A stretch of DNA of 61,357 nucleotides, filler included, from Sluysia triapertura (lineage: Eukaryota): assembly GCA_046118255.1 (NCBI GenBank). It is 5 parts of 5 records of this genome, joined end to end, with 100 filler letters (N's around TTAATTAATTAA, not from the genome) between each part and the next. Parts side by side here need not be neighbours in the genome. Positions count along the whole stretch, not along the records: positions 1 to 13,363 come from JBJNIA010044351.1; positions 13,464 to 25,849 come from JBJNIA010114308.1; positions 25,950 to 38,507 come from JBJNIA010099103.1; positions 38,608 to 49,970 come from JBJNIA010185568.1; positions 50,071 to 61,357 come from JBJNIA010186325.1. One strand, written 5' to 3'. Under the pieces are notes generated by a model, which searched no databases, was not told the origin of the DNA, and saw nothing but the letters and a program-made list of their open reading frames with translations. A program made the position numbers and the translations under genes. The number at the start of each line of letters is the position of its first letter. Within the stretch, counting starts at the first letter, position 1. Below, in pieces: positions 140-58,011 of the stretch.

Positions 140-1067
140 TGTCATGGCCAAGACTGAAAGAAAAAAGAATTATTTGTTTTGCAACTTATCATTTTTATTA
201 TTTTTATCATTTTATTTTTTATTAATTTTTATTATTTTTTATATTTTTATTATTTTTATTATTTTTATTATTTTTATTAATTTTATTATTTTTACCATTT
301 TTATTATTTTTATTATTTTTATCATTTTTACAATTTAATTCAGAATTTTTAATCAATTTTGTTTCAATAAATCAATATAGATTATTGAACTAATAATTTC
401 TTTTCGGTTCTATTACCAATTCAACTGCCGGCTCATTCCATTAATGAATTTTATTAGTATTTTATGAACTTACCAAATTTATTCAATTATTAACATTTAT
501 TGGCAATAATCTTTTGAAGCACTACATTGGCATTTTTATGTTTTTAAGCTGAATTTAAGCTGAGTAAAATCATTATATTATTATTAGTAATCATTACTTC
601 TGTATAGATTATTTCTTTTATTGTAATAATACAACTACGTATTTTAAATTGATTCTTAATTATTTACTAAAATTGTGAAAAAGGCTATACCGTAATAAGG
701 ATAGCTCAATATTATAACATCAACATTTTGTTTTCAAAAAATTAGACCGTAACAGCCTAATTTAATATTTGATTTTATTAGTTAGACCGTAAAAAGGCTA
801 ACTCAAAATCGTTAAATTTATCAACCGATTTTAATAATTTAACTAAGTTAAAATCATTTAAAAACAATTCTTATCTTAAGCCTTTGTTGCTTCTATCTTT
901 TTCACAGTAAATCCTAACAGGCCGTCGTCGTTCAGACTTAAGTCGTTCTTGTTAGGTTTATTTGCATTGTAGGTTAGGTGAAACCAAAAGTATCTTTGCA
1001 GAGGGTTGTGATAGCAACCTAACATATTGATTTTCTATCTATTTGTGTAACTTTTAAGAATATAACA
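140..1067 (+). mobile_element. 5' LTR of a Gypsy-like element (start approximate), related to LTR 40695-41709
   Basis: TGTCATGG (140) ... TATAACA (1067), followed by CT-TGGAGCGGTAG (PBS-like, 1070). Shares TTAGACCGTAAAAAGGCTAACTCAAAATC and TATTTGCATTGTA..GAAACCA blocks with 41400-41630. Confidence 0.65.
190..335. repeat. Degenerate 9-bp tandem repeat (ATTTTTATT)n
   Basis: Seen directly; it explains the spurious IFIIFI ORF 87..338. Confidence 0.9.
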
Positions 1068-3421
1068 CTTGGAGCGGTAGTAATTGGAAATGTACTAGTT
1101 TTACGGCAATTTTTGACAGAGCTTCAAATAGGAAGTTGTTACAGAAAATGATCAAGAAACATTAACTCCAACTGAGCTAGAATTTCAATGCTATGGTCAC
1201 ATTTGTCAGTTATGTCATACAACTCAGTTTTTGCATCAGTCAGAGTCCACGATGTTAGTATGTGATGATGAAAATAAATTTTAGAAGGTAGTAAGAAATT
1301 AGATTTAAAGAAGAAACTAAACTTCTACAAGCAAAATTCGTTAATCAACATCATCATCAGCAATAACAGAAGTGAATAAATCATCCAGTCTTTATTTATC
1401 AGCAGAAACATGGAAAAGTAAAATCACTGAACAACAGAAAGATTAACATGAATATTGTGTTTTAAATTGTCCACATTCTTATTTATTCAGATTCATGTTT
1501 CTTTCTTCTGATGAAAATGAATTTTTAAGTGAGTAAAACTATATTCTTACTATTTGTATAGAAACAGTTGATCAGATAATTATATTAGGTCTTTTATTTA
1601 ATATCTTCAACTATTTAAATCTGACAAAACAATAACGAAAAGAACATGAAAGATTCAAAAATTGATCAAATTAACGATGGTAAAAATCCATCGTGTTATG
1701 CTGAAACAATACACAGTGTGGTAAATCCAAAATCCAAACATTAATCCTAGACAAACATCAACACAGTCCAACACATTGCTTTTAAAAAAATCTTAAACAA
1801 ACTTCAGCGTAATCCAACACAAAACATTAAATCAACAAACAAAATAAATAAAACACAAGCACAATTTTTATACATTTTAACAATCACGTAGTCTTACAAC
1901 AAAATTTATTTTTAATTATTATTAAATTATTTTTAGTAATCTTATTGCTGTTGCCTTGTTCCTACTTAAATGACTTACTAATTTTTTGTTTTATAAGTCT
2001 TGTTGTGCTGCTCTCAATATTTTTCTTCGACTATTTTAGTTACCTAAGTAAGATTTTGTGTTGTAATTTTGTTTTGTATGTGTTTTAATTTTGACACTGT
2101 TGATTGCTTCATCTGTTTAATGTATTAATGATTGTTCGATTTGTCCGTATGAATTTAAATATAATCATTTGCATATTTTGGAAAATAACTCAAAAGTTCA
2201 TCTATTTTCTCATGAAAAACAAGGAAAAAACTTTGTATGATCTTGGCATCTAACAATTTTTATAATACATAGACCTATAAGTAGAAAAGTAACACATTAG
2301 AAGTAGTTCAAAAATGCAAACAAACTGCCCAGGCCTATGTTCTTAGTTATACAAATGCCAAGGTCACTTCTTATATTATGCCAACATAATTTGGAATAAA
2401 TTCAATTCTTATAAATTAAAATTTAAGAAAATATAAACTTTTTGCTTTAAAAGTCGATTTTTCCCTTAATTTATGCAATGATATATTGAAGGAAAAGTCG
2501 ACTTTAATTTTAATTTATTGCAGGATCGATTAAAGCTCCTTTTTAAATCTAGCGAAGAACAAAAAATAATTTAAATTTTATAAAAAAAATTTAAAGCAAA
2601 TAATGTTTCTAATAAAACATATATTGGCATTGAATAAATAACTGTAACAATTTATCAGGCTTACGTTTTGACATGCCTTTCAAAAAAGGTTATATTAATA
2701 ATTGGATATTAGATAGACTAAATAATAAATATTAGATAGACTACCGCAAAACATTTTTCCAAAATCAGATAACAAATATCATTGTCATAGAAACTGTTTT
2801 TAACTTTACGTCCACTAGGGAAACAATGAGTATTACTGTAATGAACTAATTCTGACTACTTCTTTGCTTTTATCGGAATATAAACACAGGCTAAATATCA
2901 TAGTTATTGGAGTTTTGTAATAGATTGAGGTTAGAGCTTCGCAACTATAGTTCCATTTTATAAAGAGTACCTATTAATAATTATATAAAAAGAACATCTA
3001 TGGAAAATAAAATAAAAACCAATAATTAAAATAAATTAAAAATTACCTAATGAATAGTTTCATGATATCATCTATTAGTACTGTTAATTTTTATTACTTG
3101 TTTTGTTACGAATCACATGTCAAAACAGGTATTGACATTACCGAATGTTTTTTCATCCAATCATTTACTGATGAAATTACCAGATAATTCAGTGTAATAA
3201 ATATATTCGTTACATTTTCTCTGAAAGATTAAAATTACCTCATTATAGACTTGGTGAAATTAACATTAGAACATTATCAGAAAGTTTCATGCATAATGAA
3301 ATAATAATAAAAATTAATTTAACTTATAATTGTCCAAGTGACATCGGTATTATTCCGTTTTTATTAATGTCACGTTATAATAATAATAATAATCAAAATC
3401 ATAATAATATAACAATTAAAT

Positions 3422-3694
3422 TTGACTTATAATCGATTAACTCTTGTATGTGCACAAAATCTGAGTGAAAAATCATCGAAGTGTGCAAATGTAATAACAC
3501 TATATTTAAATCATAATCTTTTCAATGATAATGCTTCACTAGCATTATGTTATTTAAAATATTTATACCTGTCTCACAATAAATTAGGGAGTAATTTTCT
3601 ATTAATTTTGGTTAATGATCATATTAATACTGAATATTTAATTTCGTTATCCAAACAACTACATCAATCTGCTGTGGTTTTTATTAATATTTGA
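3422..3694 (+). pseudogene. Leucine-rich-repeat gene fragment
   Basis: VITLYLNHNLF and LKYLYLSHNKLG fit the LxxLxLxxNxL pattern; no complete gene context. Confidence 0.5.
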
Positions 3695-4299: not shown

Positions 4300-6726
4300 G
4301 ATAAAGCCGAAGAATTTGATATAAACTTATTTAAATTATATGCTGTGGTGGCCAACCCAATAATCTGAAATTTTATTTCTTTAACACATAACAAAACATT
4401 TCACAACTCTCAATACCCCTGAACACAAAATTACAATACATCAAATTCACAATCAATACTGAAAATAATCAAAGACTAACTTAAAAAAATTAATTCATAA
4501 TAGTACAAATTTAATCCAACATACTTTACATAACATTCTAACTATTTTCCATTAAAACCTTTTTTATAATTTTTTTCTACATCTACTAAAACCTTATCCT
4601 AACCTTCTCAAAACATATCTATTTAATATTACATTCATTTTCAGAATTTATAATATAAATCAAAAAATTCATTAAAAAAATTTTATTTATAGTTCTATAG
4701 CAGTACAATCATATGTACATTTGTTAACATTGCACAACTACCCTTAGAATGTAACAAGTCTATTTATATATTTCATTTCCTTCAGATCCACTATAATCAT
4801 TTTCTTTAATATCTTAAAACACTTTAATTCATAAGTTTACAACATTCAAACCGTAATTCTAGTTAAAAACTATCAATTTACAATTTTAAGTTTATTCAGA
4901 ACATTTCAATCCACAATTTCAACATTCAAATCATACTTTCACTCAAAGCATTGATTTACATCTTTAATTTTACTTAAAACATTTTTATTTAGTTGTTTTT
5001 AAGAATAAATTAAAGAAATAGATTTATGTCAAGAAAATATTTAAATTAGAAAGAAAGTTCATGTTTTAAGATAATGAAAGTTTATGCTTTTATTTAATTT
5101 ACTATTATTATTGTCTTTAATTTTCACATTTTTGTATTATTATTATTATTATTTTATTTTTATCTATTTATCATAATTTTTGTCATTATTTTTAATTTTC
5201 ATTATAAAGACCACTATAATGGTCGCAGTTGTCATACAAAAGCACATAAACTAATTAATTTTGCTTGTCACCAGCCGACATTTGAGTTGCATTGAACTAG
5301 CATGCCGTTTCAACTGTCGACTGATGACAATTGCCTGGTGTTGTTTTCCTAGTTTGTTATGTAGTAAATCTAACCTGATTGGATTTCCAATCAGTATTAA
5401 TCTCTTTTTCAAGCAGACAAGTGTGCAAGCTCAACTGTGTATAGTAGTTATTACAAAACAAAAATCTATTTGGGTGCGATTTATGAATTATAAGTAATGA
5501 GTATTTACTGACTCTGACAACCAATCACAATATACATTTTATTTTGATTAGTAACAATGTATTTAATGTAAACTTTTTAGTGAAAATTAGTACACAAAAA
5601 TTTAGTTAATTTTATAAGCTCTTAAACATTTATCAACATTTTCAGAAATTATTCAATAATTGAATTAGAGATGACAATTTTTGAGTATTATCAATTTTAA
5701 AAAGATGCTTGATTTTACGACTATTTCACCACAATTGTAAAGTCGGAAATTATTCCGTTGCTGACATTAAAGAATTTCGAAATCGTATTAATGAAAAATA
5801 TAGTAATGAGGATTCATTAGCTGAAGTGAAAATATGAACAAATTTTATCTTAATTTAATAAATATATAGACGATCAAATAGGTATTTATGAAATCTATGA
5901 AAATTTTGATATTTCCTGTTATTTAGTACCATTAAAGTAAATCGTAAAGAATTAGAAAATAATGAATTGTTATATGCTCGTACCATGATTGTTGCATCTA
6001 TGGCTACGTGGAATAATATAATGAGTTACATTAATCGCTCGAATGTAGTCAATCAAGTGATGGATCTTTCTTTAGTACTGCATTCAAATTAAGTTCAGAG
6101 ATTATATTTAAATCAACACCACCATTGTTTTATTCTGACATCATTTGATACTATTATAACAAATCCTACTGTTTTTAGATTGCAGGCAATCATTTAAGAA
6201 TACTGTAAACTATACTAGACAAGATACAGAAATATATGGTTTAAATATTGAAAAGATGCAATCTTTTGAGGCTTTATTTATGAATGCAGAAGTAAATCTA
6301 ATACAAGATAAAATTATACTAGATCTAACACATGAGTCAAGCAGTAATGACGAAGATAATCATAAGAGGAGATACGAGAATTCTCAATTCAGCAATTTGA
6401 TTTTGGATCAATCAAGAAATAGTAATCCTATTAGTCTAAAACAAGATCACAACTCATTTAACTTTGATGCATATTTTAAATTGGCTCTCTGCCTTTATGA
6501 AACTAATCAAGAAGGTAAATGCTCAAAGTTTGGAACTAAATGTAGATATTCGCAAATAGTCAACAAACTACAAGAACTGAATTTCAATTATATGATCCTA
6601 TCGACACATCACAATAGATTAAACGATTTGTTAGCAAATATTGATATCCAAATTATAAAGACTGCCGATGACGCTACTACAATGCTATTTCAAGGAATTC
6701 ATGATGTCTCTAGCAAAGTGGCATAA
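4300..6726. repeat. Decayed divergent two-gene cassette, copy 1 (Cys-rich repeat ORF on minus, CCAAT region, ORF on plus)
   Basis: Shares TGTGGTGGCCAACC, ATCCTAACCTTCTCAAAACAT, AACATTGCACAA, TCATAAGTTTACAACA and GTCGACTGATRACA with 35430-36570. Confidence 0.7.
5375..5394. promoter_or_regulatory. Inverted pair of CCAAT boxes (CTGATTGGA-TT-TCCAATCAG)
   Basis: Perfect 9-bp inverted repeat in a GC-richer patch between divergent decayed ORFs. Another CCAATCA lies near 5521, and CTGATTGG is also present in the 36560 copy. Confidence 0.45.
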
Positions 6727-7174
6727 ATTGAAATATACTAAAAACTTAAATTTAAATTTAAGTTTAAATTTTTTAAATAAAATTAAATGTTTCAATGTCT
6801 TTTTTTAATTTGTCAAAAGTAATGAAGATTCTCTTAGTTAATTTAAATAAGAAAAGTTGTAATTACAATAAAATTTTTATAATGAAATCTAAAAAACCCA
6901 AATTAATAACCAGTTTTAATTTTACAATTTCAAATAATTCTAATCCATTAATTATTAATAATTATTAATAATTATTAATAATCCAATTTTAGTGATTCTT
7001 TACCTGCAGTAAGGTCAAGATATTACTGTTATTTAAAATCTTCCCTAAGTCTGGGATCGTAGGTGGATTTATTCATTATATAAAGCATTTTATTGTTCGA
7101 TTAAACCCATATCAATAATCAACAATATAATTTTTACATAAGTTTTATCAATCTGAATATTTTATATTTTACAG

Positions 7175-8249: not shown

Positions 8250-9877
8250 TGTGATTTGTATCCTAACAGAAGACACAGTTACAGGTTTTAGTCAAAAATG
8301 TCAAGAAAAGGGTCCATAATTAGTGTTTATTTTTTAAAGTTAGGTGTTTTCTAAATACTTAATTATATTTATTTATGAAATTTAATCTTTTAAATTAATC
8401 TTTAACAAAAAAAATAAAGAAATTAAAATTTATTAAATAAATACTATATTAGTTGCTAAAAAATGTACTTTTACACGATAAAAATTTGTACACAAAATAT
8501 AATGTAATAAAATCAGAATAAAATTGAAATTAAGGTTTTTCTCCTTAATTATTTTAAATGATTTTAATTAAAATTAGATTGAGCCATGAGTTATTCTTGG
8601 CTTGTATTATAAGATTTTAAGTAAATTTATCAAAGTCTTATCCTAATAAGAATTAATTTACGATTGCACGGACTTTAGTGAATATTTATTGAAAATATAT
8701 TTAAATTTATTTAATGAACAATTATTAAAATAAAAATCATTAAAATCGATTATTAAATTACATTTATTAAAATTTCATTTAAAGATTCTTTGATTAAAGT
8801 TAACTTTATTAAATATCGAATAACCTGTGAGAAAATTAAACGTTATTAGAATAAAGGTTAAAGCTGTGAGTTCAGCAACGTACTGGACTTACCAGTGAGG
8901 GCCAGCCGTTGGATTTGGTAATGTAAAAATAATGGAGGTTACGTCAAAAAATTATTAGATTTTCTTGGATATATATTAATTGCTTTAATTGTTAATTTAA
9001 TAATTACAAATTATTTAAAGGTTTAAATATGATTTTTCGTGGATCCTGTGAAATACGATCAAAATGATTATGTTACAATGTTAGAATTACACTCTAACCA
9101 AAAAATTCAACTGTCGTGTGATTTTTCTTTAGTTTGAAACTATAAAAGTTAGATTCAATTCAATAACAAATTAAATTTACAAAGTATATTATCAAAATGT
9201 TACTTCAGAATTAATCAAAAAATTCTTGTTATCTTCAAAAATTTTAATAGAATTTTACAATGAATCTATTATAAGATTCAAAAAATAATTTACAAAAATG
9301 ATTTTTAGTAGGATTTTACGAATGATATTTTGTCGATATCGAGTCTTATAAAAATAAACTAATTGTACTAATAAAACGAATTTGTATGAAAATAATGGTT
9401 TGGATCGCTTGACGTAATCGGATAACTGAACTTTTAGTCGAAAAGATTTGTGATTTACTCTAAAAGAACGCGATTGCAACACGATTCTGTTTATAGTCAA
9501 AATAAAAATGGTGTGAAAATGTAGCAAAAATTCTGTTTATTTATATTTGTTTTAGTCTGACCTTGGTCAGACTAAAACAAAACTAATATATTATTTATTT
9601 AAAAAAATAATTTTAGATAATTTATAATAGTGATTTTAAATATAATTTTATAATTTAAAAATATAATTTAATAATTTTAAAAATAAAAATAATCATACTT
9701 TTGAAATAATTAAAATTAATTCCTTTGATTAATTTTTTTAAAAATATTAATAAAAATTTGAAAATAAATCCAATTATTTATAACACTTACAAATACAAAA
9801 TCAATAATATAATTTAGTCAATAATGTGTGTTAATGCAAATGTATCTTAGATGTATAGATGTATCTTAGTCATCACA
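8250..9877 (-). mobile_element. Putative LTR (minus), homologous to 44699-~46100; left boundary uncertain
   Basis: TGTGAT (8250) ... ATCACA (9877) inverted ends; block-wise similarity of 8820-9600 to 44900-45830; no convincing TSD. Confidence 0.45.
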
Positions 9878-12185: not shown

Positions 12186-12279
12186 TTAGTCATATTAGTT
12201 ACGCTTTAATTAATCAATAAACGATTTTTTTAAAACTTTCATAATATTTTAATTTTTTAAATTTTTAATATTTTTATTT

Positions 12280-18889: not shown

Positions 18890-18899
18890 ACAACAATAA

Positions 18900-38681: not shown

Positions 38682-39930
38682 TTCTGTTATCAATCATCAT
38701 TATCTTTCACAAAAATTATAATAAACAATGTGAGATTTATTGAATATGTATTGTGGTCTAGTATTGAGTTTCTAAACTAGAGATTTGGTTCTTGGATAAA
38801 TATTCATAAGGCAATAATTATATTTTTATTCCACAAAATTTTAGTTTTAATATAATCTTTTAAATTTGTCATTAATGTTTTACTCTTGTTCGAAGTTGTT
38901 TCGTCGTATTCTTGTTCCAAATATTATACTTTTAAAATATTATTCAAAATGTTGTAAAAGAAACACCGAGTTTTTTATGTTGGGTTTCAGCCCTATTTAG
39001 TGACCTTAAAATATTTTCATATAGTAATTAACAATAAGTACTTAAAGTACTTTTCATTTTGAAATAAAATCAATGCTTTTAAGCCTTCTAAAATTATTTA
39101 ATAATTTTTATTTTTAATATTTCATTTTAAACCATTTTTTATTTATCATTTAATTTATGTCAAAAATTATAAGTTTAAAGTGGACCTCATAACATTTTTG
39201 TAAAATTAAATCTTTAACATATTCGAAAAACCGATTTTTTGAAGTAATGTGTTTGAATGTTTAGGTATAGTGCTTTGTATATGTGTTGGGAATAAGATGT
39301 TTTTAAGTTGAGTGGGCTTGGTTAAAATTGAATGTGGCCCATGAATTTTATGTACAACTAGCTTTTTTGTTATTTATGAATTAATTAATAATGCATTATT
39401 TTCTCATTGTGTACTGGTGAAAATATTATTTATCTAATATAAAATCACTTTTCATGTTTCAAAATACAGAATCTCGTTAATATTTAACTTTATTTCACAA
39501 AACAATTCCCCTTTTTTCATTTATATGCCAAGCAGATTAAATGCTACCTTTACAACTTTGATTATATTTACTCCTTTCATGTCTATGAATGAGTCACAAT
39601 AATCATTTTATTTAAAATATAATTTGGTCTTGAGATTTGGCTCAGAATTATTTTAATCGGAATACCAACTGATACAAGTGGGGAGAGTTTATTTCAATTC
39701 CTATCCCATATTCAAACGTATCGGTACTGCGAGTGTTTTAACTATCTTAATGAATCTGGAAGCGAGTCCACCTAATAGATATGGCTTAAAATAACTAAAC
39801 TTGTCAAATAAGAGGTTACCTTACTCTTAATCAATATTAGTTATATTATAGTTAATCAATATTACTCAACCTTAATCTAAACTAACGTAAACTAAATTCA
39901 ATATACGTAACTAAACTCAAACCTTAATAA

Positions 39931-40632
39931 GTGATATTACTCAATTATACTTTAATTCAAGTTAACATTAAACTCAGGGAGTCTAAGGATGTAGCCGACG
40001 TCAGATCTTACCTTTTTGGTTTCTTAAATAATAAAATTTTAGTTTCCATTCACCCCCGTTTTGTGATTGAAGCGCTAGACATTCCTTTTGGCTTGTCAAA
40101 TCACAACCTCATCCCTTTCTCTACTGATGACGTTTTCGTGCGTGCGAGACAGACGTTGAAGCTCGTCTACCCTGTATGTCCAAAGTTCACGTGCAAACAA
40201 TTGGCATCTGAACTTGTCACAGTGTTAGATCACATTAGGGAGAGAGACCTTGCTTTTATCCAACGCTGCAATGACCCTCCACTGTCGTTACTAAATCTTT
40301 TTCTCCTCATCCACTACCTGCTGTTTCCGATATTCATTCCCCAAAAATTTCTGTTACACAACAATGTCAAAATCAATCAGCATCATCATCTTTGGTCATC
40401 ATCGTCATCATCCCTTTCGTTCGTCTTCGTCAAACCTCAACCTCCCAAAAGAAAATCACACCAACCTTACAAAGAACATCGACACTACTTCCAAAATCAA
40501 GACCCACCAGATTTTTCGACGAGTGGGATCTTCTTGATTCTCTTCCACATCGTCCGCATAAACGAAACACTTACAGATTCGTCACCACTACATTGGCTCG
40601 AAGATGATGACGTCGACCTCGACTTCTGTTGA
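39931..40632 (+). CDS. Accessory ORF just upstream of the PPT of an LTR element (unknown, Pro/Ser-rich; true start uncertain)
   Basis: 233-codon frame in GC-richer DNA ending ~50 bp before the PPT; KPQPP motif shared with the ORF at 48861. Confidence 0.4.
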   Translation: MILLNYTLIQVNIKLRESKDVADVRSYLFGFLNNKILVSIHPRFVIEALDIPFGLSNHNLIPFSTDDVFVRARQTLKLVYPVCPKFTCKQLASELVTVLDHIRERDLAFIQRCNDPPLSLLNLFLLIHYLLFPIFIPQKFLLHNNVKINQHHHLWSSSSSSLSFVFVKPQPPKRKSHQPYKEHRHYFQNQDPPDFSTSGIFLILFHIVRINETLTDSSPLHWLEDDDVDLDFC

Positions 40633-40694
40633 TCCTTTTAACCATGTGATTCGTTTCGAGATTTGTGGACAAATCTTCTCGTTGGGGGAAGTAT

Positions 40695-41709
40695 TGTGGG
40701 GATGCTGAATCAATTAATCAAATCGACTAAATATTATAATATTTATTGACATATTTTATTATTTGACATTGTTACTTATTCTTATTATATTTAAAAAATA
40801 TTTATTTTTATTATATCAAAAACCTAATAATATTAAATAAGATTAAATTGAAATTAACTTTTTAGAATTTGAAATAATTAAATTAAAATTAAATGTTTAA
40901 AATTAAAACTAATATATGTTATTTTAATTTAAATAAATTTATATTTATTGTTTAAACAAATCATTTTTGTTTAATTTAATCAATTTTATAAACAAGCAAC
41001 ATGGCTGCTGAAAATTCTATATAAAAACCAGTAGGTTTAATGGAATTTTCAGAAGCCATTAGCTAAGAAAACATTCAATCATCTATAACTTTCCATATCT
41101 ATCAGTTTCCATGAATAAAGTAAGATTTTTTATATTAAGTTTGCCTTCTCACCGTAACTGGGAAAAATGAAATCCACGTAAAATCTTGAGTAATTTTTTA
41201 ACTTATACCGTATAAAGGATAAGTTAACATTTTATTAAACTTTATATACTAAATCTAATAATTTAGATTTAAGTGTTAAAATACGTATTGTTATTATATT
41301 TATCTTATTTTTTGTACTTTGTATGAGAAAGAAAGGTGGTTGTTATGAAGTTATATATTATAGAAGCTAAAAGGCTGGCTTAAAATTATAAAATATTTCA
41401 TAGAGTTTTCCCAAATTAGACCGTAAAAAGGCTAACTCAAAATCATCTAAAATATAAAGAATAGTTATCTAATGTTGAGATACAGTTTAATAGTTTGTAT
41501 GTGACTCTTCCGAAGTCGGATTTTAACTTTCTCTTAAAATCTTAATAGACCTTCGTCGACCAGACTAAACCGTTTCTGTTAGGTGGATTCACTCCAGAAT
41601 TCTATTTGCATTGTAAGTTTAGAAGAAACCACCTTGCAAAAAGCAAAACTATATTCAGTGTGAAATATTCCTGATTAAACAGGCATCAGATTTGCAATCG
41701 TGCCTCACA
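40695..41709 (+). mobile_element. 3' LTR (~1015 bp) of a Gypsy-like element
   Basis: PPT GGGGGAAG (40684-40691), then TGTGGGG...CCTCACA inverted termini; TATATAAA ~41018 and AATAAA ~41114. Confidence 0.85.
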
Positions 41710-44698: not shown

Positions 44699-46100
44699 TG
44701 TCATGGTCAATTATCTTTTATGTTACGATACATTATTCAGTAATTTATAATTATTTTATGTTTTATTATTGTTACTTATATAAAATATTTTAGAAAAAGA
44801 TAATAATAACTATCTATAATAAATATTATAATATTATATTATAATAAAAAATAACATAATAATTCATTTCAAATAATTGAGATTAATAAATTCAAATAAT
44901 AGCTATTTGTGGGTGATTTTAAAAGATAAGATCCTTATAGAATAAGATAAAATTTTAACGTGAGTCCACCAACGTACTAGGCTTACCAGTTAGGGATAGC
45001 CGTTGGATTTGTAAAGAAAAGACTTGTTAAGTAGAGGTGAAGTAACTTCATCAAGTGTAAATGCAATAGGATGCTCTCACTTTGGTAATTTTGCTATTAA
45101 TTCAGAACTTAAATGCTTATAGCCACATTTCTTATTTTTTGGAGTTATTTTAATAAATGGGAGTCAATACAAGCTGTAAATAGTATTTTAACAAGGTTTA
45201 TAAACAACTGGAATTTAATATTTTGTTAACTAAAAACAAATATTATTAGAAGTAGTTTACGAAGATCCTATGAAAAGGATCTGTAACAAGTAATTTTACG
45301 ATATTAGAATTAAATTCTAATAGGAGAAAGCTCAGTTTGGTATGGATTTTATATTTGAAACTATAAAAATTATCGTCAATCAAAATTAAAAGTAATTTTC
45401 TAATAATCTATTAACAAAAAATTATGATACAAAGGATATAAGAATTATAATACAAGAATAAACATTTACGTTAATTAACTGTTGTTGAATTAATTATTTA
45501 AATAATAAATTTAATTGTATTTTTCACAAGAACCGATAATTGGTTCCAAATTCTTTATAAAAAATAAATTTGAGTATATTTTTTAGTATATTTGAGTATA
45601 TATTTCAGGTATAAAAACCTTAACAAAATAAACTAACTCAGAATTATTTTGAAAAGAAAAACTGTTGCAATCCGGCCAAGAATATATATTTAAAATGTTT
45701 ACTGTTTAGAATAGTGTTGAAAATAATGTTAAAAATTGTGTTAACAAAAATTGTGTTGAATTTTACGACTACTTATAGTTGATCTAACTGTATTTGACCC
45801 GACTAAAACAAAATATTTATTTTATTTATTAAAACGAAAAAAATTTAATAATTAATTTTTTATAATTTGATATAATTACTCACGTTAATTTATAATCCGA
45901 TTAATTAAAATATCAATTCAATTAAAAATCCAAAAATTATGACAAAAATTATAAATTGCAAAATTTAAATCAATAAAATAGTTACAAATATTACAAATCA
46001 ATAAAATAGTTACAAATACTATAAATTAATAAAATAATGTACAATAATCAATTCAATGTGTTGTATAATAATCAATTGAATATGTGTATAATAATAAATT
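44699..46100 (-). mobile_element. Putative LTR (minus) inserted into the LINE; right end not resolved
   Basis: Starts TGTCATGGTCAA exactly where the LINE homology stops; homologous to 8820-9830. Confidence 0.5.
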
Positions 46101-47699
46101 CAATGTTGTTATTTACACTAACCTCAAAATTTACATAATTATTTATATCTGTATTTATTTCAATTTTAGCTTTTTCTATATAATTTTTAATGTTTAAAGA
46201 TAAATTCAATATCAAATGAATAAAATTATTCCTTATTTGTAAATGTTTAAAAAAATACTAAATAAGTAACAAAATAGATCTTCATAAGTGTTTAGATCTA
46301 AAGGAAAATATATTTTATTAATGAAACATTATCAATAAAAAACGTAACATGAATAATTCTTATACATATATTAATTACTACAAAATATTGAACAAAAATA
46401 TTATAATTTATTAATAAAATGTTTTATAATTATAATAATATGTGACTACGAATTGAACTATATGCAATTTTACAATGATTTTTCATTTTATAAAATCCTT
46501 TCGGATAGCCTCGTAAATTAAAATTAAATAAATTGTTTTTGACATATTCTGTTCACACAAGTCCATTATTACGATTTTGTATTTCTAAAATATATTAATA
46601 TATATAATTAAATACAATTTATTATATATTAAATAATTGAAATAAAAATATTAAAATAATGTAAAACTAAGTTATACAATAATTTATCCATAGCAACATA
46701 ATTCATTGAACTTTGAATTATAGTATTAAAATTATTATACGTTTGAGTGAATAAATGGTAAAGGAATTTAAAATTTTAAAATTTGTATTTAACTTTTATA
46801 TTTATTTTATTAATAAATAATATAAATTAATTAATTCTTTTAATGTTTTGATTCATAATAAAATGTTGCAATAATATTTTAAGTATATTAAAAATTTTAT
46901 TAACATAACTAGTGTCTTAAAGATTATTTAACATAAAATTGAAAAATAAATTTAATTTAAAATCAGAGTAAAAATAGTAACACTGTCAGATCTGTGCTAA
47001 AATAATTATCTTCAAAGAAGAACTTAGGAAAATCGTATAAGTTTTTGTCTATGTTGCTGTTAATCAAATGTGATTCATTCATATGTGCATCAAGATGCAC
47101 TGTAAGTTTAAGAAATCATTAAAATTAAAAGATAATTATATTTTTGTGATTAATCGAAAGTTTAATTAGTATTTGATGTATTATATTTCAAAAATTATTT
47201 TGAAGTTATATTATTTTAAATAATAATAATAATAATAATTGCGTTATTATCATTATTATTTTTATTAAACAATATTATAAAACAAAATCATATTTATTTA
47301 TGGCGACCTAGTTATACATCAATTAAATTTTAATAATATATTTGTCATAATGTAAATGCTTAATGTTTAAGAAAATATTTATTTACATATTTCAGTTAAT
47401 GCATTATTTTATAAAACATGTTTTATAATTTTTAAATCCACTACGGACACAAAGTTTGTAGAATATTTAAAAAAATACAGATAAAACTATAATAAGATAT
47501 AATGTCATTATTTTTATAATATTATGTATTATTTTAAAGTATACTATAACTGTATTATTGACAGAGGATTTTGTTATTCAGTTTTAAACATTTTGCTGAT
47601 ATTCTATAATAAATTACACACAGTGTGATGTCTCAAAACCAAACCTGCTACTTGATTGCATAGTTCCACATATATCCACTCTAAATCGCACCATTTACA

Positions 47700-48621
47700 T
47701 TATAAATATGATACACTTTATTCAACTTTACTCATCTACCAATTTTTACGGAACGACTTAGGACTTACAAAACTTATGAAAATTTCAATTACCCTTATGA
47801 AGAAGGCGATTATGATATTCTATAAGAAATAATAACAAACCCATCTGATGATAACGAAACACTTTTAGAAGATAACAACAAAGAAAATAACTTCAGTTCT
47901 CATATAATTCAAAAAACTAAAAATCTATTAATGTCTTACAACTGTAACGATACATTAAAGATTCCATTTTAAAAACGGCTTACCTAAAGGACGAATTAGT
48001 TTTTACCCTTTCCAAGTTAATAAAAATTTCAATTGCAGCCATAATAATGGAATTCAGCTGTGTAGTGGTCAACATTAATAACTTGTTAAAATTAACTTAA
48101 TCCTGTTAAAAACCAACCTTCTTAACAACCATACTCCTTAATCCAAATACAACGCCCTCAAGGCTATTTCGTACCCTAAAAGCTGGACTGTAATTTCTAT
48201 TATTATTTCAATTTAACGGTGGTAGAAATTTAAAAAAGTCTACATGCAACAAGAAAAAAATTTACAAATAAGCAACCCTAAGTCATTGTTAACATTGTTA
48301 AAATCCTATTATTGATAAATCTTACGTATGGCAGAATGTAAAGATCGACGGTAGCCCATAAAATGCCTTGAATCTTTGCAAATACAAGAACTGCAATTTA
48401 TTTGATCAACTGCTGGCCAGATGGTCGATTGTATGGGTCGTGGTCTACCCGTAGTTGGCGTAATAACAAACCTAGTCGATATAGTGGTTCGTAAATGGTT
48501 AATAACATTCTTGATAATGAGAAATTGTCCTAGATCGTGTATCATTGGATTAGATACCATTCGAGCATTAAATAACGCAGTGGTTCACCCCATCACTGGT
48601 CTAGCACTTATATACCTATGA
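47700..48621 (+). pseudogene. Decayed gag-like region and retropepsin (aspartic protease) lacking the DTG active site
   Basis: VKIDGSPIKCL[..]..MVDCMGRGLPVVG..ITFLIM..CIIGLDTIRALNNAVV fits the retropepsin flap and ILGxD motifs. The gag call is positional only. Confidence 0.7.
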
Positions 48622-48860
48622 ATGGTTGTTGTAATTCTTTAAGAATAAACGTGAAGCATTTGTATGTATACATTAAATATATTTGATATTTGTTGTACTT
48701 TTATATTTTTATAAAAAATTAATAAGTTTAATCTCGATGCGTGAAGTCCACTTAAATCAGCCTAGCCGTGTAGTTGGCACATGATAGACGATCGTTAAAA
48801 AATATAGGAGATTTATATATAAGTTACTATTTTAATTTCAACCTTTATTCTATATTAAAA

Positions 48861-49169
48861 ATGCTGGGTCCTATTTGTAGGAACTGTTTAAATGAGTATT
48901 ATTTTGTAAGTTATCATTGTGGACATAATTATGACCAAAAATGTGTTGTAGATCTTTTTCACAATGATAATACGAAGTTTCCAACTTCTGCCCTTTGTAG
49001 AGCTGAAATAACAGGTTACACCTTGTTTTTTAAAGGTTCTTTTAGAAATAATTTTCAATTTAAACGTACTTCTTCACCTTCTACTTCACCTTATCAACCT
49101 CCCAAATATCATTTCAACAAACCTCAACCTCCGCCACTTGATCTTTCACCCATCACAACGATAATATAA
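48861..49169 (+). CDS. Degenerate C3HC4-type RING-finger ORF with Pro-rich tail
   Basis: CRNC-x10-CGH-x2-D-x2-C...SALCR; two ligand positions are substituted. Confidence 0.6.
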   Translation: MLGPICRNCLNEYYFVSYHCGHNYDQKCVVDLFHNDNTKFPTSALCRAEITGYTLFFKGSFRNNFQFKRTSSPSTSPYQPPKYHFNKPQPPPLDLSPITTII

Positions 49170-49296
49170 AAGACGAACTCAAATAAAAATTTTTTATAAA
49201 GCATTAGGTACTTATTCTAAAAATCCAGTTCGTCATGTTAAACTGAAAAGACAATAATATTTTCTTTAAAGCTTTGGGACAAAGCTTACCTACTAT

Positions 49297-49970
49297 GGGA
49301 TAAATATAAAATATATAAAATATAAATATAAAATATATAATAAATAAACATAATGCTTATTCTTCATAAAATAACTCATAAACTCATTGCAATAAAATAA
49401 TCATCATTCTTAATAATCAGCATTTTTAATAAAATATAATATTTAAACATATTTTTAATAAAATATCGGTTTAAAAATATTAAGAATATAATGCTTTGGT
49501 ATCAATTTAAAATGAGATTACATATAGTTAATATAAATTAAAAATTTAATAACAAATAATAATTAAATTTAAAGTGAAAATGTAGAAATAATTATTTTAA
49601 AGTAAGATTCTATAAAGTTAATATGAGATTAAAATTTATAAATATTAAATCTTACTATTATATCTTACTATTAAATCTTACAATGTATCCTAAAATAAGA
49701 ATTAATAACAATATGAAATTAAAATGTAAGCATCAGAACTTATTATTGTATTCAATAAATCATCTTAAATTAAGAATCAATAACAGTAATATGAAATCAA
49801 ATTTTAAGAACATAAAATCCTCTCAAAATTATCTTAAAAACATGCTTTAGAATATATAAAATAAATTATATGTAATAAAAATTTAAAAGCACCATTATCG
49901 CATAAAATCATATTAAACTGAAATTGAATAGAACTAGTATATAATTAAAAATTAACTTAAATGAAAGAAG
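49297..49970 (+). repeat. AT-rich repeat, probably the 3' LTR of the gag-pro-RING element; second copy at ~51300-51680
   Basis: Preceded by TTTGGGACAAAGCTT (compare TTGTGGACAAATCTT before the PPT at 40665). 49490-49960 aligns with 51330-51580. Confidence 0.5.
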
Positions 49971-51805: not shown

Positions 51806-53094
51806 AAATGATTTAATAGTGTTTATTGATGATTCATTATTGTTACTATTGATGAAATTAAATTATTCATCATCATTATGAAATAATTATTTATTGTATC
51901 ATTATTACTATAATTATTATGTACTAAAATTATATTAAGTGGAATTAAATAATTATCACTCATCATGATTATAATATTAACAAATTAATCACTATAATAT
52001 TGGATGGAATTACTATACAAGAAAATTCAATAATTCAAAACCATAATAAAACGCGTATAAATAGCGCGTGCAAGCGATTGAGCAAGCGATACACGGGATA
52101 CACTGGTTAAACGAATAACGGCGCGACACACGGTGAAAGCGACGATCGATTATTAGATAATATATTTGAACATTTTAGAGAAGACATCATTTAGAAATTA
52201 TTTTTGGCATCGCAAAATTGGAAGATCAAAGCACATTATTCAGAATTAATATTAAAGAAGAGACCAATCCAAAATTAATTGTAATTATTGTCGATTAAGT
52301 AAGCGATATTTATTGTAATTCCAGTTTAAAATATTTAAAGTTATAAATATATTTTTCAATATTTATTTATATTCATTATTGTTGCTGTTTCATTAGTGTT
52401 ATTGTATTTTGTATAAAGTATTTGATTAATAAATCTTCGAATTTGAATTTTTTGTGTTTTGAGAGTAGTTCCACAAAGAAGAAAATAATATAAGGTTATA
52501 ATCAAAAAATTGCAGTTGTATCTAAAGTTAAAGTTAATATTTATATAGTCAATTGAACTTCATTTTAGAATAAACTTAAAAATATATTTTTGCGTTTCCA
52601 TTCCAGACCATCGGAACGAGTATCAGAACTCATACTTCCAGATAGAATAAAGAAATATATATTAATAGAATAGTAAAACGATAAAGATTTTAGGTTGTTG
52701 CTGACTAATTTATATAAGGGAAGATATTTAAAGTATTAACGTTACAGAGTTTGTATTGGAAGTCTAATTATCTAATTTATCACAAGTGTATATTAATTTA
52801 TTGAAGTATCCAGAGTCATTTAAAGTTTTACAGATAATAATAATTAAATATAAGTAATTTTTATCAAGTTTGAAGAAGCGTTGTTGTTCATCTTTAAAAT
52901 CTAACAATATTTTGGAAAAGAGTAAATGAACTTATTTCTGCTAATAAAAAATTAGAAACACCGAATGAAAAATTCTCCAATAATTGAAAATATTAATAAT
53001 GAAAAGAACGAAAAAATCAAAATTTCAAATCAAAAATCAATTGTAAAAATAATTAAAGATTAATTTTAATCAAAAACAAATAATCTTAATAAAA

Positions 53095-54665
53095 GCTACA
53101 TTTTTCACATATATTATTTGTTTTGTGCCAAAGTCGTACTTGACAAAATTTGCGTTTGTGATAATGGGTTGCAGTTGATCTTTGTGGGTCTTCATGTTCT
53201 GATAAATTTTTCTGTCTTGAAACTCTAAATTCGTTGGAAAGCTGTTCTGCTAATTGAAATAAGAACTATTCGTTCTATTTGTATTCCTGTCTTTTCTTTG
53301 CAAATGATCCAAGCATTTATGGCAGCCAAATCTAAAATATTGAAAAATATTTGGAGGAGTTATCCACGAGAACTGTATATTTCCTAGCCATTTGATCCTC
53401 CATATCAACTCCAAATTTTATACTGTTATAAAATTGAATTGATTCCGGTAACATTTTTATTACTTTTATCAATTTTAACAAATTTATGCTTAGAACTTAG
53501 AACAGCTACTTTTTTATTTGGTTTGCTTTTATATATTGTAAGAACACAATTCTCTGATTTACAGAGCAAAGTGGAAAAACGAAGCATGCTATTCTTCGTT
53601 AGTTTGGCTGCTTTGGGTAGTTCTCTTTTGTTTCCTCTAATAGCTCCAACTAGAGTTGATATTTTGCCAATAATTTTGTCGCGAGTGACACGCTAGTTTG
53701 TTTATGGCTCGACAAGTTTCAGAACAACGTGTTCACTGAGAAGCATTAACGATGATTGTTGTTCATCTTTCCCTAAATAAGGAAAACCATTCAAAATATA
53801 TTTGCTACTAACATCTGTCGCAAACCTAAGTTTGATGCCAAATTTGTTGGGTTTATTAAGCATATATTGTGTAAACCTGCATCTGGCTTTTGAAGGAAAT
53901 AATTGCTTGTCAAATGTTATATTTTGCCCTGGTTGATAGCAAGCTTGACAATTTTCAATAAAACTGTCCCATATTTCCGAAACCAAGGCAAATTTATTTG
54001 TTTGTAGGAGTCCACTTCTTTCGGCTCTTTTGTCAAAACGAATAAATCGTTTGATTTTCTTGAACCTTTTCCTGGTCGTAGTTTCTCTAAAAATTTTGGG
54101 ATTCCACTTTGCTGACCATAAATAACTCAGTTTTAAATTTTTTGCGTCGCAGGCTCCACAAGCATATAAAATCCCAATAAATGTATTTATTTCCGGTAAT
54201 GTTGTTGTCCAATCGTTCCTCAAAATTCTACTTCTGTTTGATAATATAGTTATCTATTATCAACGAGAATGCACTGATAAGGTTATCTACTAAAATGTTC
54301 CTTTTAGTGTAACCTGTTGGGCCTTTCACACCCTTGAATACAAGTGGATGGTAACCTTCATCAATTTTTGTCCACACTGTACCATCAGCAGCTGTTTCGA
54401 CCTTCTGAAACGTATTTTCAGTTTCTTCAGCAGAATCTGAACTACTTAGCACCATACACTTTTTCTTGGGTATATTGATGACACTTTCATTTTCATCATT
54501 GGTGATCGACTCTTCATCGCTATCTTCAGCGTCAGATGTTTCACTTTGAATATAATCCGCTTCATCTTCAGATGATAGTTCAGAATTTGTTGCATTTGAT
54601 TCTATATCGGAGCACTCTTCACTTATGTTCGTTAGCTTTTCCAATAACTCATTTATGTTCGACAT
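53095..54665 (-). pseudogene. piggyBac transposase pseudogene (frameshifted, 3 segments)
   Basis: Acidic N-terminus; RFIRFD, NITFDKQLFPSKARC, YMLNKPNKFGIK, TLVGAIRGNKRELP, YNSIKFGVDMEDQ and a C-terminal Cys-rich remnant. TIRs not confidently seen (TTAA at 54882 is a candidate end). Confidence 0.92.
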
Positions 54666-54889
54666 TTTTTTCTTGAAGAAATAAAATAAGCAACTTGTTA
54701 GAACAACACTTTATAAAGACTCGAATAACAAGTACTACTTTAGCTTATTGAGCAACTGCAACTTATCAAGTATACGCCCAAATCGACAATTTATCATGCA
54801 TCGGTATGTTACGGTAATCGGTAAGCTGAGAATCACTGGCTTACAGACCTATATCAAATAAAACACTCTTATCAAAATTGGTTAAAAAA

Positions 54890-55769
54890 TAAATTTTACA
54901 ACAATTGTCAAAGTTCTTGGATGAAAATAAACTTCTTACAATGTATCAATCAACCTACAGAGCCTATCGCTCTACAGAAACGGCTATTTTAAGAATAAAT
55001 TATGATATTTTAAATTGTTTTATCCCTCGTTTAATGCAACAAAATGGTTTGAGTGGCACTTAAAAGAAAGAAGGCAATTAAATTTGTGTTAAGCTTGGAG
55101 TTCCTCGGGGATTAAACCGTGGTCCATTATTGTTTATAACATATGATGTTTCAAGTGTAATTGAATCATATTGCTTTAAATATGATACATAAGCTGATGA
55201 CGTGCAAATATATATTGAATTTGAAATGAACAACATAGAAAATACTACTCAAAGAACAGAAGAAGTATCTTAATTGATAAAAATGGTTTGGAAATAAGTA
55301 CTTGAAAGTTAATGAAGAAAAGTGAGAATTTATCATCTTCAGTAATAAAAAAGCGACAATACCAAAATAAATGAAACAAAGTTAATTGTAGGTGGTAAGA
55401 TACTAGATGCGAAACTAAAAGTACGAAATATAGGCTGTTATATGGATTCAAATATGAACATGGAAGAAAATATTAATTGTATTGTTAAATATCAATTAAA
55501 GAAAATCTTAAATATTCGAAAATTTATTAATAAGAAACAGTTAATCTAATTGTTCATTAATTGATTCAAACATAGATTTTAACAATGGCATGTTGTACTA
55601 AATTTCATATAGAAATGTGAAAAAATTACATTTAATAATTAATCAAGTAGCAGGACTAATTTTTCAAGTGGGAAGATCTCATGTAACACCTTATCTTAAG
55701 GAATTACATTGGTTGCCAATAAAAACAAGAATAGAATTCAAAATTATGATAATAATTTACAAATGCTTA
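54890..55769 (+). mobile_element. LINE (L2/Crack/Daphne-like) RT remnant, 5' part
   Basis: QSTYRAYRSTETAIL, GVPRG..GPLLF, (Y>stop)ADDVQIY, HVTPYLKELHWLPIKTRIEFK. Confidence 0.88.
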
Positions 55770-58011
55770 TGCTATAAATTTATTATTATTTTATGGTATG
55801 AAATTTGATTTATTCAATGTTATACCCTCCTTCTCTTTTCAATTTTTTGCGTTTACAATTTCTAATATGTCGTAATGATAAAAACAATTCACTTTTGAAA
55901 AAGTTAATTCAATTAATTAATCGGACTTAATAAATTTATTTGAATTCTATCTGGAGGTATGAATACAAATACTTGTTTCGGTTGAACGAAGTGGAAGTGC
56001 CAAATAAGTATCTCTCGAAATTTTACAAATTTCACTCGAAAAATTTTATTTACTTAGTAATATGATGAAATCTCTACTTCTTGTTTCTTCAATAAACATT
56101 AAATTATCTTAATTTCTTTTTTCTTTTCTTTTATCCGCTTTATTTACCACTCTTATTGCAATCCCCTTTAACTCAAGTTTAACAACAAAAAAAGAAACAA
56201 TCTAATACAAATAATTTATTCGCTTAAATTAAACAAAGTTATAAGATAATATATTAAGAAATTAATTAATATTAATTAAATCGACCAAAAAACTAATATT
56301 TATAATTATAATTACCTTAATGGTTGAGATTAGAAAGTAATATTTCGGTTTCAAAGTTTTATCCAAGTGGTTAGATGCAATTATGCGACTGATAATCTCA
56401 ACTAAATATAGAATGGTAATATTCAGTTCCAAAAATTTTTCTATTGGCTGCTAAAAACTAATTAATAAACAATACTCCAATTATTTGACAAACTAATTAT
56501 CTGGTTGTCAATTTTAACTTTACACAAATGCTTTTCAAGATTCTATTATTATTAAACCTTATTTCATTCCCATATATATGTGTGTAAAGGTATTTAGATT
56601 AGTATTTAGATAAAAATAAATGTATTTTTTAAAAAAATTGAAATTATCATTATATTAAAAATGGAATTATTGTATATTAAAAATCATATATATTAAAAAT
56701 TATTGTAAAATAAAATCATTATTACATATTAAAACAAATAAATATTACTTATGAAATATTTAATTGAAATTATTATTATAAAATTATTATTTATTAAAAA
56801 ATTTTGTTATAACTAATGAATATTGGTGACTGAATATTACTGTAGATACTGTTTGTTTTTAAATACTAAGAGATAAGATTTTATAAATTACACAAAAACA
56901 AAAAGAAAATATTGACAAAAATTATAATTAAGCATCATAATTGGAAAGATTATAATTTATATTTAAAAAGAGCTGCAGTTTATTTATGTATTATAATTTG
57001 GAAAATTTCAGTTTAAACTTGATCGTTAGTTTTGTTACCTTTATAAGGAAAATTATGATTTATAAAAACATAAAATAGACGCAACTTCAAATTAAACAAT
57101 TAGTAATTTTTATATACAACATAAAATTATTTGAAAAAAATTTAAACAGCCAAATATTAATTAATAAAATTAATATTATTAAGCATTTCTTATATAGTAT
57201 CGTGTATATAATATTTTATGATTATTACTACTAAAAATTTAACGTTTGACACTTTATAAATTACAATTTTCATAATTAACAAGTTTTTTTGTGATTAGAG
57301 TTAAATTGAATGTTCTTATAAGAGTTGTAGTTGAATTAATATTTTAAACCTAAAAGTTTGATTTACCTGTATAATATTTTGTGTTATAATATATAATTTT
57401 GTTTAACACCTTATAAACTTACTTGATTTAAAATTTTTAGAAAAGTTTTTTATTTAGAATCTGATTTTTCTAAAGTTTATAATTAACTTAATTTAAGATT
57501 AAATTAATATTTTACATCTAAAAGTTTACATTATTATTTTGTATAAATGTTTTAGTTTTAGTATAATATTTGGTGTTTTTTAATAAATAATCTTAATATT
57601 AAAGTGTGTATTTTCTTTTGATATTGAGTAAGATAAAGTTTGAATAATTGATTTAATACTTTATAATAATCATACTACGTCTATTCCCTAAACTATAACA
57701 AGTTCCTCACCAAGAAAGTTCAGTAACAGCTAGATCTACGAAATAGGTAAAATCAAGAATAAATAAACACAAACTTCCAGTTCTCATCTTTCTTTTAAGC
57801 TGCGAACCTATGCGCTGGACCTTCAGTGACTAAGTCCAGTATCATAGAGAGCTTCGTTAAAGATAAAATATTTAAATTTAAAATCAAAATCTTAATCTAA
57901 TAACTAATTACCAATATATATAGTAATTACTAATAATTACATTTCATAAATAACTTAAAATATTATTACTACTGTTATTTAATTATGGTTACTGAGAAGT
58001 AACTCATTACA
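55770..58011 (+). mobile_element. 2242-bp solo-LTR-like insertion, TG...CA, 4-bp TSD CTTA
   Basis: CTTA|TGCTATA ... CATTACA|CTTA. Removing it rejoins the LINE frame (YKCLRYGNPE), colinear with the copy at 44611-44640. Confidence 0.8.

What the first reader, a model, noticed from the sequence alone, without database searches (positions are those of the whole stretch)
909..57856. Conserved, covarying ~50-nt hairpin starting with a splice-donor-like sequence, shared by diverged LTR-element families (8 copies)
Seen: copies at 909-956(-), 7003-7070(-), 8866-8916(+), 39752-39790(+, 5' half only), 41537-41602(-), 44960-45010(+), 48741-48798(+, divergent) and 57803-57856(-). The layout is GTGAGTC-CAC bulge-stem-internal loop-GRYTTA-[variable hairpin]-GARGGY-stem-GATTT. 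Stem sequences change while pairing is kept: CAACG/CGTTG, CCTAACA/TGTTAGG, CTATG/CATAG; inner CTGG/CCAG, CTA/TAG, CTGGAC/GTCCAG. Flanks are unrelated between families. The GTGAGT part is missing or degenerate in three copies (909, 7003, 57803). Established: GTGAGT is the U1 donor consensus. Inference: a functional RNA element that sequesters a 5' splice site in its basal stem (splicing/retention switch or protein-binding site). I do not recognise it as a known family.
Basis: partly seen in the sequence, partly recalled or inferred. Interest (0 to 1): 0.9.

Follow-up and report, generated by a model that had tools for sequence, protein, structure and literature searches.

The report
Splice-donor-masking hairpin at retrotransposon LTR ends
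Remnants of several likely LTR retrotransposon families in this AT-rich genome share, near one end of their terminal repeats, a 55-letter stem whose letters change while the pairing is kept, and it likely acts as an RNA switch that would hide a splice-donor-like signal, though which transcript reads it is untested.

Summary
The motif is real. Five copies (909, 8866, 41537, 44960, 57803) and one truncated copy (39752) hold up; 7003 and 48741 are unconfirmed. The middle stem takes three different sequences and stays Watson-Crick (27 of 29 pairs). Contigs of the one sequencing run show the motif in many more copies. No Rfam family matches. It lies 40-60 nt from one end of ~0.9-1.1 kb TG…CA units that look like LTRs. 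Exact GTGAGT stands in only 2 of 8 window copies. Best reading (0.4): a switch on the GT strand that masks a U1 site. Main rival (0.27): a U5 hairpin of the opposite strand helping reverse transcription start. No RNA data and no intact element were available.

The parts
8866..8916 (+). Motif copy, group I, complete (block A 8866-8872; P2 8876-8880/8907-8911; U1-like block B 8886-8892; basal partner C 8911-8916)
44960..45010 (+). Motif copy, group I, complete (P2 44970-44974/45001-45005)
   Evidence: found by the group II model at E 0.037
57803..57857 (-). Motif copy, group I, different P2 arms, donor-like block degenerate
   Evidence: 0 of 2999 tiles vs 8866; E 0.085 with the two-copy model
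909..967 (-). Motif copy, group II, 7-bp P2 (950-956/913-919), block A lost by a short deletion relative to 41537
41537..41602 (-). Motif copy, group II, decayed (2 of 7 P2 pairs broken on this strand)
39752..39788 (+). Motif copy, group II, 5' half; truncated at 39788
   Evidence: 0 of 2999 tiles vs 41537; 13 contigs leave the reference at 39788 and run on with the motif's 3' half (table 7)
7030..7075 (-). Possible degenerate copy, unconfirmed
   Evidence: 1-7 of 2999 tiles vs 44960; missed by independent models
48728..48798 (+). Possible degenerate copy (5' flank and block A only), unconfirmed
   Evidence: 1-2 of 2999 tiles vs 39752; missed by all three models
8826..9877 (.). Solo-LTR-like unit, TGTGA…TCACA, 4-bp target duplication; motif 40 nt from one end
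40695..41631 (+). LTR-like unit next to a polypurine tract; TATA at 41018, AATAAA at 41114; motif antisense at its far end (end may lie at 41631-41660)
56824..57913 (.). Solo-LTR-like candidate, TGGT…ACCA, 4-bp duplication; motif 55 nt from one end
175..1024 (.). Solo-LTR-like candidate around copy 909 (ends uncertain)
44908..46118 (.). LTR-like unit homologous to 8826-9877 in blocks; far end placed by eye
40684..40694 (+). Polypurine tract directly before TG
   Evidence: sequence
39931..40629 (+). Decayed internal reading frame before the tract; no relatives found
   Evidence: 5 of 7 listed family differences fall on third codon positions; 0 hits
39676..39687 (+). Second purine tract 75 nt before copy 39752: a polypurine tract of a + element, or the terminal inverted repeat of a - strand LTR
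   Evidence: unresolved
41413..41446 (.). Block shared with 782-810 (29 of 29 identical), the most widely shared part of the group II LTR
9094..9132 (+). Candidate branch point and acceptor that would close a 267-nt intron from the GT at 8866
   Evidence: 1 of 7 copies passes the filter
47301..49300 (+). Remnant of a related element: PBS-like TGG at 47301, gag/protease-like frames to 48620, RING-like frame 48861-49166, tract-like end near 49290
   Evidence: gag/protease labels are by eye, no database hit

Best explanation
The motif is a covarying stem element 40-60 nt from one end of LTR-like repeats, and it likely works as an RNA switch on the GT strand that would keep a splice-donor-like block (GUGAGU) away from U1 snRNP. 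Shown: the P2 stem, its place at LTR ends, and that block A is complementary, with G-U pairs, both to the basal 3' strand and to an inner GRCUUAC that copies the U1 5' end. Inferred: two folds compete, a long hairpin (A with the basal strand) and an H-type pseudoknot (A with the inner block plus P2); both hide the donor; opening frees it, so that U1 binding would set splicing or 3'-end formation of the RNA that carries it. Inferred and open: that RNA is either an antisense transcript running into U5 (if the orientation given by the polypurine tract holds for all copies) or the 3' untranslated end of the element's own RNA (if the motif lies at the start of U3).
For: A:B pairing is 7, 7, 6 and 5 contiguous pairs on the GT strand against 3, 3, 2 and 2 on the other strand in four copies from both groups; A pairs with both slots this well in 5 and 10 of 20000 shuffles of two copies. 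Variation in the helix is mostly one-sided and keeps pairing (73.5% of cells paired against 12-51% in six slid registers). Block A is the most widely shared part of the motif in the run (depth 3571 at 41588 against 314 at 41552 and 24 at 41702), and 3555 of 3571 carry the canonical donor letter there. The host uses GTGAGT at a HYDIN exon end. Copy 8866 has a branch point and acceptor 228-267 nt downstream. Precedent: foamy viruses block U1 binding to a donor in the 3' LTR by RNA structure (PMC3694450, abstract).
Against: The LTR at 40695 abuts a polypurine tract and places the GT strand antisense, where a donor has no known role. P2 is more populated on the opposite strand in 5 of 5 nested folds (0.55-1.0 against 0-1.0; the program cannot form the pseudoknot). 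Neither A helix shows covariation above shuffles (135 and 33 of 500). A:B is no better on the GT strand in 57803 and 7003 (3 vs 4, 3 vs 5), and block A is lost in 909. The slots were chosen after seeing the sequences and the two copies are relatives. Only 1 of 7 copies has a strict branch-plus-acceptor.
Confidence: 0.4

Rival explanations
1. The working strand is the opposite one: a U5 hairpin in the element's genomic RNA, 40-100 nt upstream of the primer-binding site, whose free 3' tail (the complement of block A) and loop pair with the primer tRNA or with the leader to control the start of reverse transcription, dimer formation or packaging. GTGAGT is then only the complement of that tail.
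For: Polypurine tract plus TG at 40695; the unit shares a 26-nt block with the 909 unit at a matching distance from the motif (0 of 5776 small tiles, 35 of 1390 large tiles); one TTTTGTTT at 270-306 and a TATA at 323-342 from the motif-distal end in three units. P2 wins on this strand in 5 of 5 folds; 909 folds better here (z -4.1 vs -2.7); the two broken pairs of 41537 are G-U here. tRNA pairing outside the PBS is common in retroelements (PMC5371799, section 2.1). Likeness of block A to a tRNA T arm is recalled, not tested.
Against: Does not explain why two other conserved blocks are complementary to block A only on the GT strand. No clear PBS lies next to any motif-bearing LTR in the window, so the primer tRNA is unknown; no tRNA gene is in the window. 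A purine tract also stands 75 nt upstream of copy 39752 in the GT sense.
Confidence: 0.27
2. A protein-binding RNA element (nuclear export or packaging, like the CTE or RTE of simple retroviruses and IAP elements; recalled) whose conserved letters are the binding face; the donor likeness is incidental.
For: Stem with conserved loop letters (GRYTTA, GRVGG) and variable inner hairpin; donor hexamer exact in only 2 of 8 window copies.
Against: No Rfam match; conserved letters are accounted for by pairing with block A; export elements need the sense 3' end, which the oriented LTR contradicts.
Confidence: 0.13
3. The structure forms in minus-strand strong-stop DNA (the GT strand is the first DNA copied from U5) and paces primer removal or strand transfer.
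For: Joins the GT-strand pairing with the U5 position without needing an antisense RNA; P2 forms with DNA parameters in 3 of 5 copies on that strand (0.73-0.95); P2 has no G-T pair.
Against: A:B and A:C rest on G-T pairs, weak in DNA; P2 fails in 8866 and 41537 with DNA parameters; no precedent found in the searches.
Confidence: 0.08
4. An unknown small self-cleaving ribozyme or nuclease-blocking pseudoknot that defines an RNA end in the LTR.
For: Size, conserved unpaired letters, possible pseudoknot, place in terminal repeats as in retrozymes and Penelope elements.
Against: No hammerhead, HDV-like, twister, pistol or hairpin-ribozyme match (cores also compared by eye with recalled consensus); loop letters differ between groups.
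Confidence: 0.07
5. No single-strand function: bZIP-like DNA sites in inverted arrangement or leftover shared ancestry.
For: Blocks resemble AP-1-type sites (recalled); folding energy unremarkable in 7 of 8 copies; another LTR block is shared more widely than the motif.
Against: Three different P2 arm sequences each keep perfect pairing at the same place and do not cross-pair.
Confidence: 0.05

Closest known systems
Foamy-virus major splice donor masked by RNA structure (Schrom et al. 2013, PMC3694450; abstract read)
   Same: A U1 site inside an LTR whose access is set by alternative RNA folding.
   Different: There the donor is in R on the sense strand and is masked by a long-range fold at the 3' LTR; here it is a self-contained 55-nt element at an LTR edge with its own U1-like strand, probably antisense, and untested.
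U5 structures and extra-PBS tRNA pairing of retroviruses and Ty1/Ty3 (PMC5371799 section 2.1; HIV-1 primer activation signal recalled)
   Same: Hairpin close to the U5 end, with a short conserved tail that could pair with tRNA, if the opposite strand is the working one.
   Different: No sequence likeness shown; primer tRNA unknown; GT-strand pairing has no counterpart.
Hammerhead ribozymes in retrozyme LTRs and Penelope terminal repeats (PMC6431247 passages; PMC4918200, PMC4209133 listing only)
   Same: Small conserved RNA motif in terminal repeats of many retroelement families.
   Different: No hammerhead core; no Rfam hit.
Ty3/gypsy elements with extra 3' ORFs (Burro, PMC6431247 passages; bdelloid ORF3 elements, PMC5408684 passages)
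   Same: The remnant at 47301-49300 has a short RING-like frame before its tract; ORF3s are expressed from spliced RNA.
   Different: The passages read describe no such hairpin; family assignment impossible without RT.

Membership tests
Any Rfam 15 family | Match at or near the family's gathering score | tested here: not met
   Whole window 1 chance match; four single-copy scans gave 0, 3, 2 and 1 matches, best E 0.26, all far below gathering
LTR of an LTR retrotransposon | TG…CA ends with target-site duplication | tested here: met
   4 of 8 copies lie in such units with a terminal inverted repeat of 4 or more, against 63 of 600 random anchors (binomial about 0.006, by hand); one of the four is the unconfirmed 48741
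LTR of an LTR retrotransposon | Polypurine tract directly before the 3' LTR | tested here: met
   40684-40694 before TG at 40695; one unit only
LTR of an LTR retrotransposon | PBS directly after a motif-bearing 5' LTR | tested here: inconclusive
   PBS-like site at 47301 has no motif beside it; a TGG near 39665 (-) fits no tRNA I could check
LTR of an LTR retrotransposon | Two matching LTRs around gag-pol | not testable with these tools
   No intact element in the window; no genome held
Ty3/gypsy group | RT/integrase phylogeny and domain order | tested here: inconclusive
   No RT or integrase hit among 32 long and 150 of 370 short frames; 4-bp duplication fits but does not define
5' splice site | Donor consensus used by the host | tested here: met
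   GTGAGT ends a HYDIN exon at 14519; exact in 2 of 8 copies, majority form at 41537
5' splice site | Junction reads at the GT on a transcribed strand | not testable with these tools
   No RNA holder listed
Foamy-type masked donor | Donor in R, sense strand, upstream of the poly(A) signal | tested here: not met
   Motif is 40-60 nt from an LTR end, and antisense in the oriented LTR
Hammerhead / retrozyme | CUGANGA and GAAA cores on three stems | tested here: not met
   No Rfam hit; GAAA not kept across copies (consensus recalled)
HDV-like and twister ribozymes | P3-L3 between P2 and P1 (HDV); UAA…UCCC…GAGG order with P4 (twister) | tested here: not met
   Only 5-6 nt between the strands, order differs (consensus recalled); no Rfam hit
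SECIS | UGA/GA quartet under a symmetric 11-12 bp helix | tested here: not met
   Arms differ by about 6 nt (recalled definition); no Rfam hit
tRNA-derived SINE head | tRNA-like cloverleaf with A and B boxes | tested here: not met
   ARAGORN 0 genes; no Rfam tRNA hit
Primer activation signal | Complementarity to the T arm of the primer tRNA | not testable with these tools
   Primer tRNA and host tRNA set not available

The most novel reading that the evidence does not exclude
A new class of retroelement RNA switch: a 55-nt element kept across diverged LTR families that carries a splice donor together with its own copy of the U1 5' end, toggles between a long hairpin and a pseudoknot, and acts on the antisense strand of U5, revealing a regulated antisense transcript (or a folded first cDNA) as part of the LTR retrotransposon life cycle.
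Probability: 0.2. Interest if true: 0.8.

Novelty: new variant of a known kind. Interest (0 to 1): 0.55.

Why it matters
Structured cis-acting RNAs are mapped for a few retroviruses and yeast Ty elements, and hardly at all for animal LTR retrotransposons. A motif kept across families whose other LTR sequence has diverged gives a short, directly testable handle on how such elements control U1 access, RNA ends or priming. If it works on the antisense strand of U5, it points to a step of the life cycle that has not been described. If it is a U5 priming hairpin, it is a useful new example of a known kind.

Tried and rejected
No genome held. No RNA holder listed: no evidence either way on expression. 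Loose descriptor search: 13 sites against a mean of 6.2 in 40 shuffles (max 16), not discriminating. Pattern scans: viral contigs 1, 2, 0, 0 stretches, metagenome contigs 42, prokaryote genomes 0; none of the 45 loci has P2 by eye or scores with the model (0 matches), so all are chance. Whole-unit global alignments collapsed to trivial end alignments and are uninformative; tile walks found LTR homology only in blocks. Model R1 was built on a misregistered alignment and its seven hits are its training set. Coding constraint on the motif rejected: reading frames differ between groups and loop length varies by one letter among group II copies. Frameshift or readthrough signal rejected: no slippery heptamer or shared stop before the motif. 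DIRS internal complementary region considered for 39752/41537 and set aside: flanks are unrelated and the unit has a polypurine tract. A sense, internal position between protease and a 3' ORF (39752, 48741) was considered: the two loci share a downstream block (0 of 3982 tiles) and a pre-tract stretch (13 of 5202), but 48741 is unconfirmed and 39752 is cut at 39788. Literature: nine searches listed no paper whose title or abstract start describes this motif; subscription papers and Repbase were not searchable and no supplements were read.
Full report
Setting. The window is 24% GC with AAT repeats and scaffold gaps. It holds HYDIN exons 47% identical to a bivalve protein, so the host is likely an animal; I did not identify it. 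No genome is held. One sequencing run, X1, kept as contigs, holds the region and may be the source of the assembly.

Is the motif real? The eight stretches are as written. Scored against 2999 background tiles they form two groups: 8866-44960-57803 and 909-41537-39752, each inner link beaten by 0 tiles. Between groups the best links are beaten by 3-5 tiles. A covariance model from group II alone ranks 44960 first of 22 non-training matches (E 0.037) but does not list 8866 or 57803. A model from 44960 and 8866 finds 57803 at E 0.085, behind one unrelated hairpin, and no group II copy. Sequence-only profiles did not cross between groups. So homology of the groups is probable, not proven. 7003 and 48741 were missed by both independent models and stay unconfirmed.

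Structure. The middle stem P2 is the solid part: 27 of 29 pairs are Watson-Crick in five copies, with three arm sequences that cross-pair at most 3 of 5. The inner CTGG/CCAG stem belongs to group I; group II has a 3-bp inner hairpin instead. Folding energy beats shuffles clearly in 1 of 8 copies. New here: the 5' block GTGAGTY also pairs with the inner GRCTTAC, which has the letters of the U1 5' end (U1 sequence recalled). The run is 7, 7, 6 and 5 pairs on the GT strand against 3, 3, 2 and 2 on the other strand in 44960, 8866, 41537 and 39752; it is not favoured in 57803 or 7003, and 909 lacks the block. Both partners pair this well in 5 and 10 of 20000 shuffles, but slots were picked after seeing the sequences and the two copies are kin. 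This helix shows no covariation above shuffles (135 of 500). With P2 it forms an H-type pseudoknot that excludes the long hairpin (inference from the order of strands).

Family-wide view. 1011 contigs of X1 were laid on 39500-41900 at 80% likeness. The bin holding copy 39752 has depth 811 against 192 and 50 beside it. Thirteen contigs leave the reference at 39788 and continue with the motif's 3' half, including an arm complementary to this copy's P2 arm, so 39752 is a cut real copy. At the 41537 copy depth is 3571 in block A, 712 in block B, about 300 in the inner loop and 24 at 41702. Only 40 of 211 differences were shown, they are unlinked, and depth is not copy number. A different LTR block (41413-41446) is shared more widely than the motif.

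Where it sits. Four of eight copies lie in TG…CA units with a 4-bp duplication and a terminal inverted repeat of 4 or more, against 63 of 600 random anchors; the clearest is 8826-9877. The motif starts 40-57 nt from one end. The unit 40695-41631 abuts a polypurine tract that follows a decayed + strand frame (5 of 7 listed differences on third positions). It shares a 26-nt block with the 909 unit at a matching distance from the motif (0 of 5776 small tiles, 35 of 1390 larger ones), and three units carry one TTTTGTTT at 270-306 and a TATA at 323-342 from the motif-distal end, with one of those ends placed by eye and the 56824 unit not fitting. This makes the motif antisense at the U5 end; I put that at about 80%. 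Against it: a second purine tract lies 75 nt upstream of copy 39752 in the GT sense, and 39752 and 48741 both stand in sense before related 3' regions. No RT or integrase was found, so 'Ty3/gypsy-like' is an inference from ends, tract and 4-bp duplication.

How it most likely works. Two lines pull apart. Position favours the opposite strand, where P2 also wins in 5 of 5 nested folds and where U5 hairpins and extra tRNA pairing are known (PMC5371799, passages and section 2.1). Pairing favours the GT strand, where one constraint, a donor with two alternative partners, explains all three conserved blocks; the host uses that hexamer as a donor, and 1 of 7 copies has a downstream branch point and acceptor. 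I commit to the GT-strand switch (0.4): both folds hide the donor, opening lets U1 bind, and U1 sets splicing or 3'-end formation. The transcript is either antisense into U5 or, if the orientation is wrong, the element's 3' end. Shown: P2, position, complementarity. Inferred: the folds, U1 binding, the transcript. Rivals: U5 priming hairpin 0.27, protein-binding element 0.13, fold in strong-stop DNA 0.08, unknown ribozyme 0.07, no single-strand role 0.05.

Comparison with what is known. No Rfam family matches. Pattern scans of viral, metagenome and prokaryote collections gave only chance hits. It would work like the foamy-virus donor that RNA structure hides from U1 (PMC3694450, abstract only) but fails that family's position test. 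An earlier unchecked note of this scan (e1-9768033) reports a hairpin-masked donor in fungal gypsy LTRs; it led me to that paper and is not independent support. Passages of PMC6431247 and PMC5408684 describe gypsy elements with extra ORFs and spliced ORF3 messages, but no such motif. Nine literature searches listed nothing on it; supplements and Repbase were not seen.

Verdict. Observation partly confirmed, interpretation partly supported. A real, apparently undescribed structured element of LTR ends; a new variant of a known kind, with a 20% chance of being a new antisense-strand switch. Interest 0.55.

Noticed in passing
41413-41446 and 782-810: A 29-nt identical block with TTACGG repeats nearby has summed contig depth near 25,000, ten times the hairpin's bin; it is the most widely shared part of the group II LTR and could be a protein site or a branch/acceptor on either strand.
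   Followed up: partly
9546-9581: Near-perfect 36-nt palindrome (34 of 36) just before a TATA-like box of the 8826-9877 unit; the matching place in the 44908 unit keeps only one arm.
   Followed up: no
14010-25200 (+): HYDIN exons, 47% identical to a bivalve protein; the host is likely an animal with large AT-rich introns.
   Followed up: partly
9935-13407 (-), 6160-6723 (+), 3413-3691 (+): Cluster of host-gene fragments: Cys/Met PLP enzyme, a GH47 piece joined to an STT3-like piece, a Cys-rich frame, a CCCH finger, LRR; looks like gene capture by another mobile element.
   Followed up: no
47301-49300 (+): Element remnant with PBS-like site, gag/protease-like frames, no RT, and a RING-like 3' frame (Pfam E 0.0013, below cut-off) sharing a block with 40435.
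   Followed up: partly
53070-54710 (-); 15427-16252 (-): Decayed piggyBac-like (DDE_Tnp_1_7, E 6e-32) and Tc1/mariner-like (DDE_3, E 3e-10) transposases.
   Followed up: no
28203-28521, 44420-44700, 50071-50184, 55569-55770, 58009-58312: Five fragments of one more interspersed repeat, 77-87% alike.
   Followed up: no
33455-33712, 49473-49935, 51313-51687: Arrays of 70-90 nt AT-rich units shared between three places.
   Followed up: no
26633-26678 (-): Small hairpin that scores E 0.041 with the two-copy model but lacks the inner blocks; taken as chance.
   Followed up: partly
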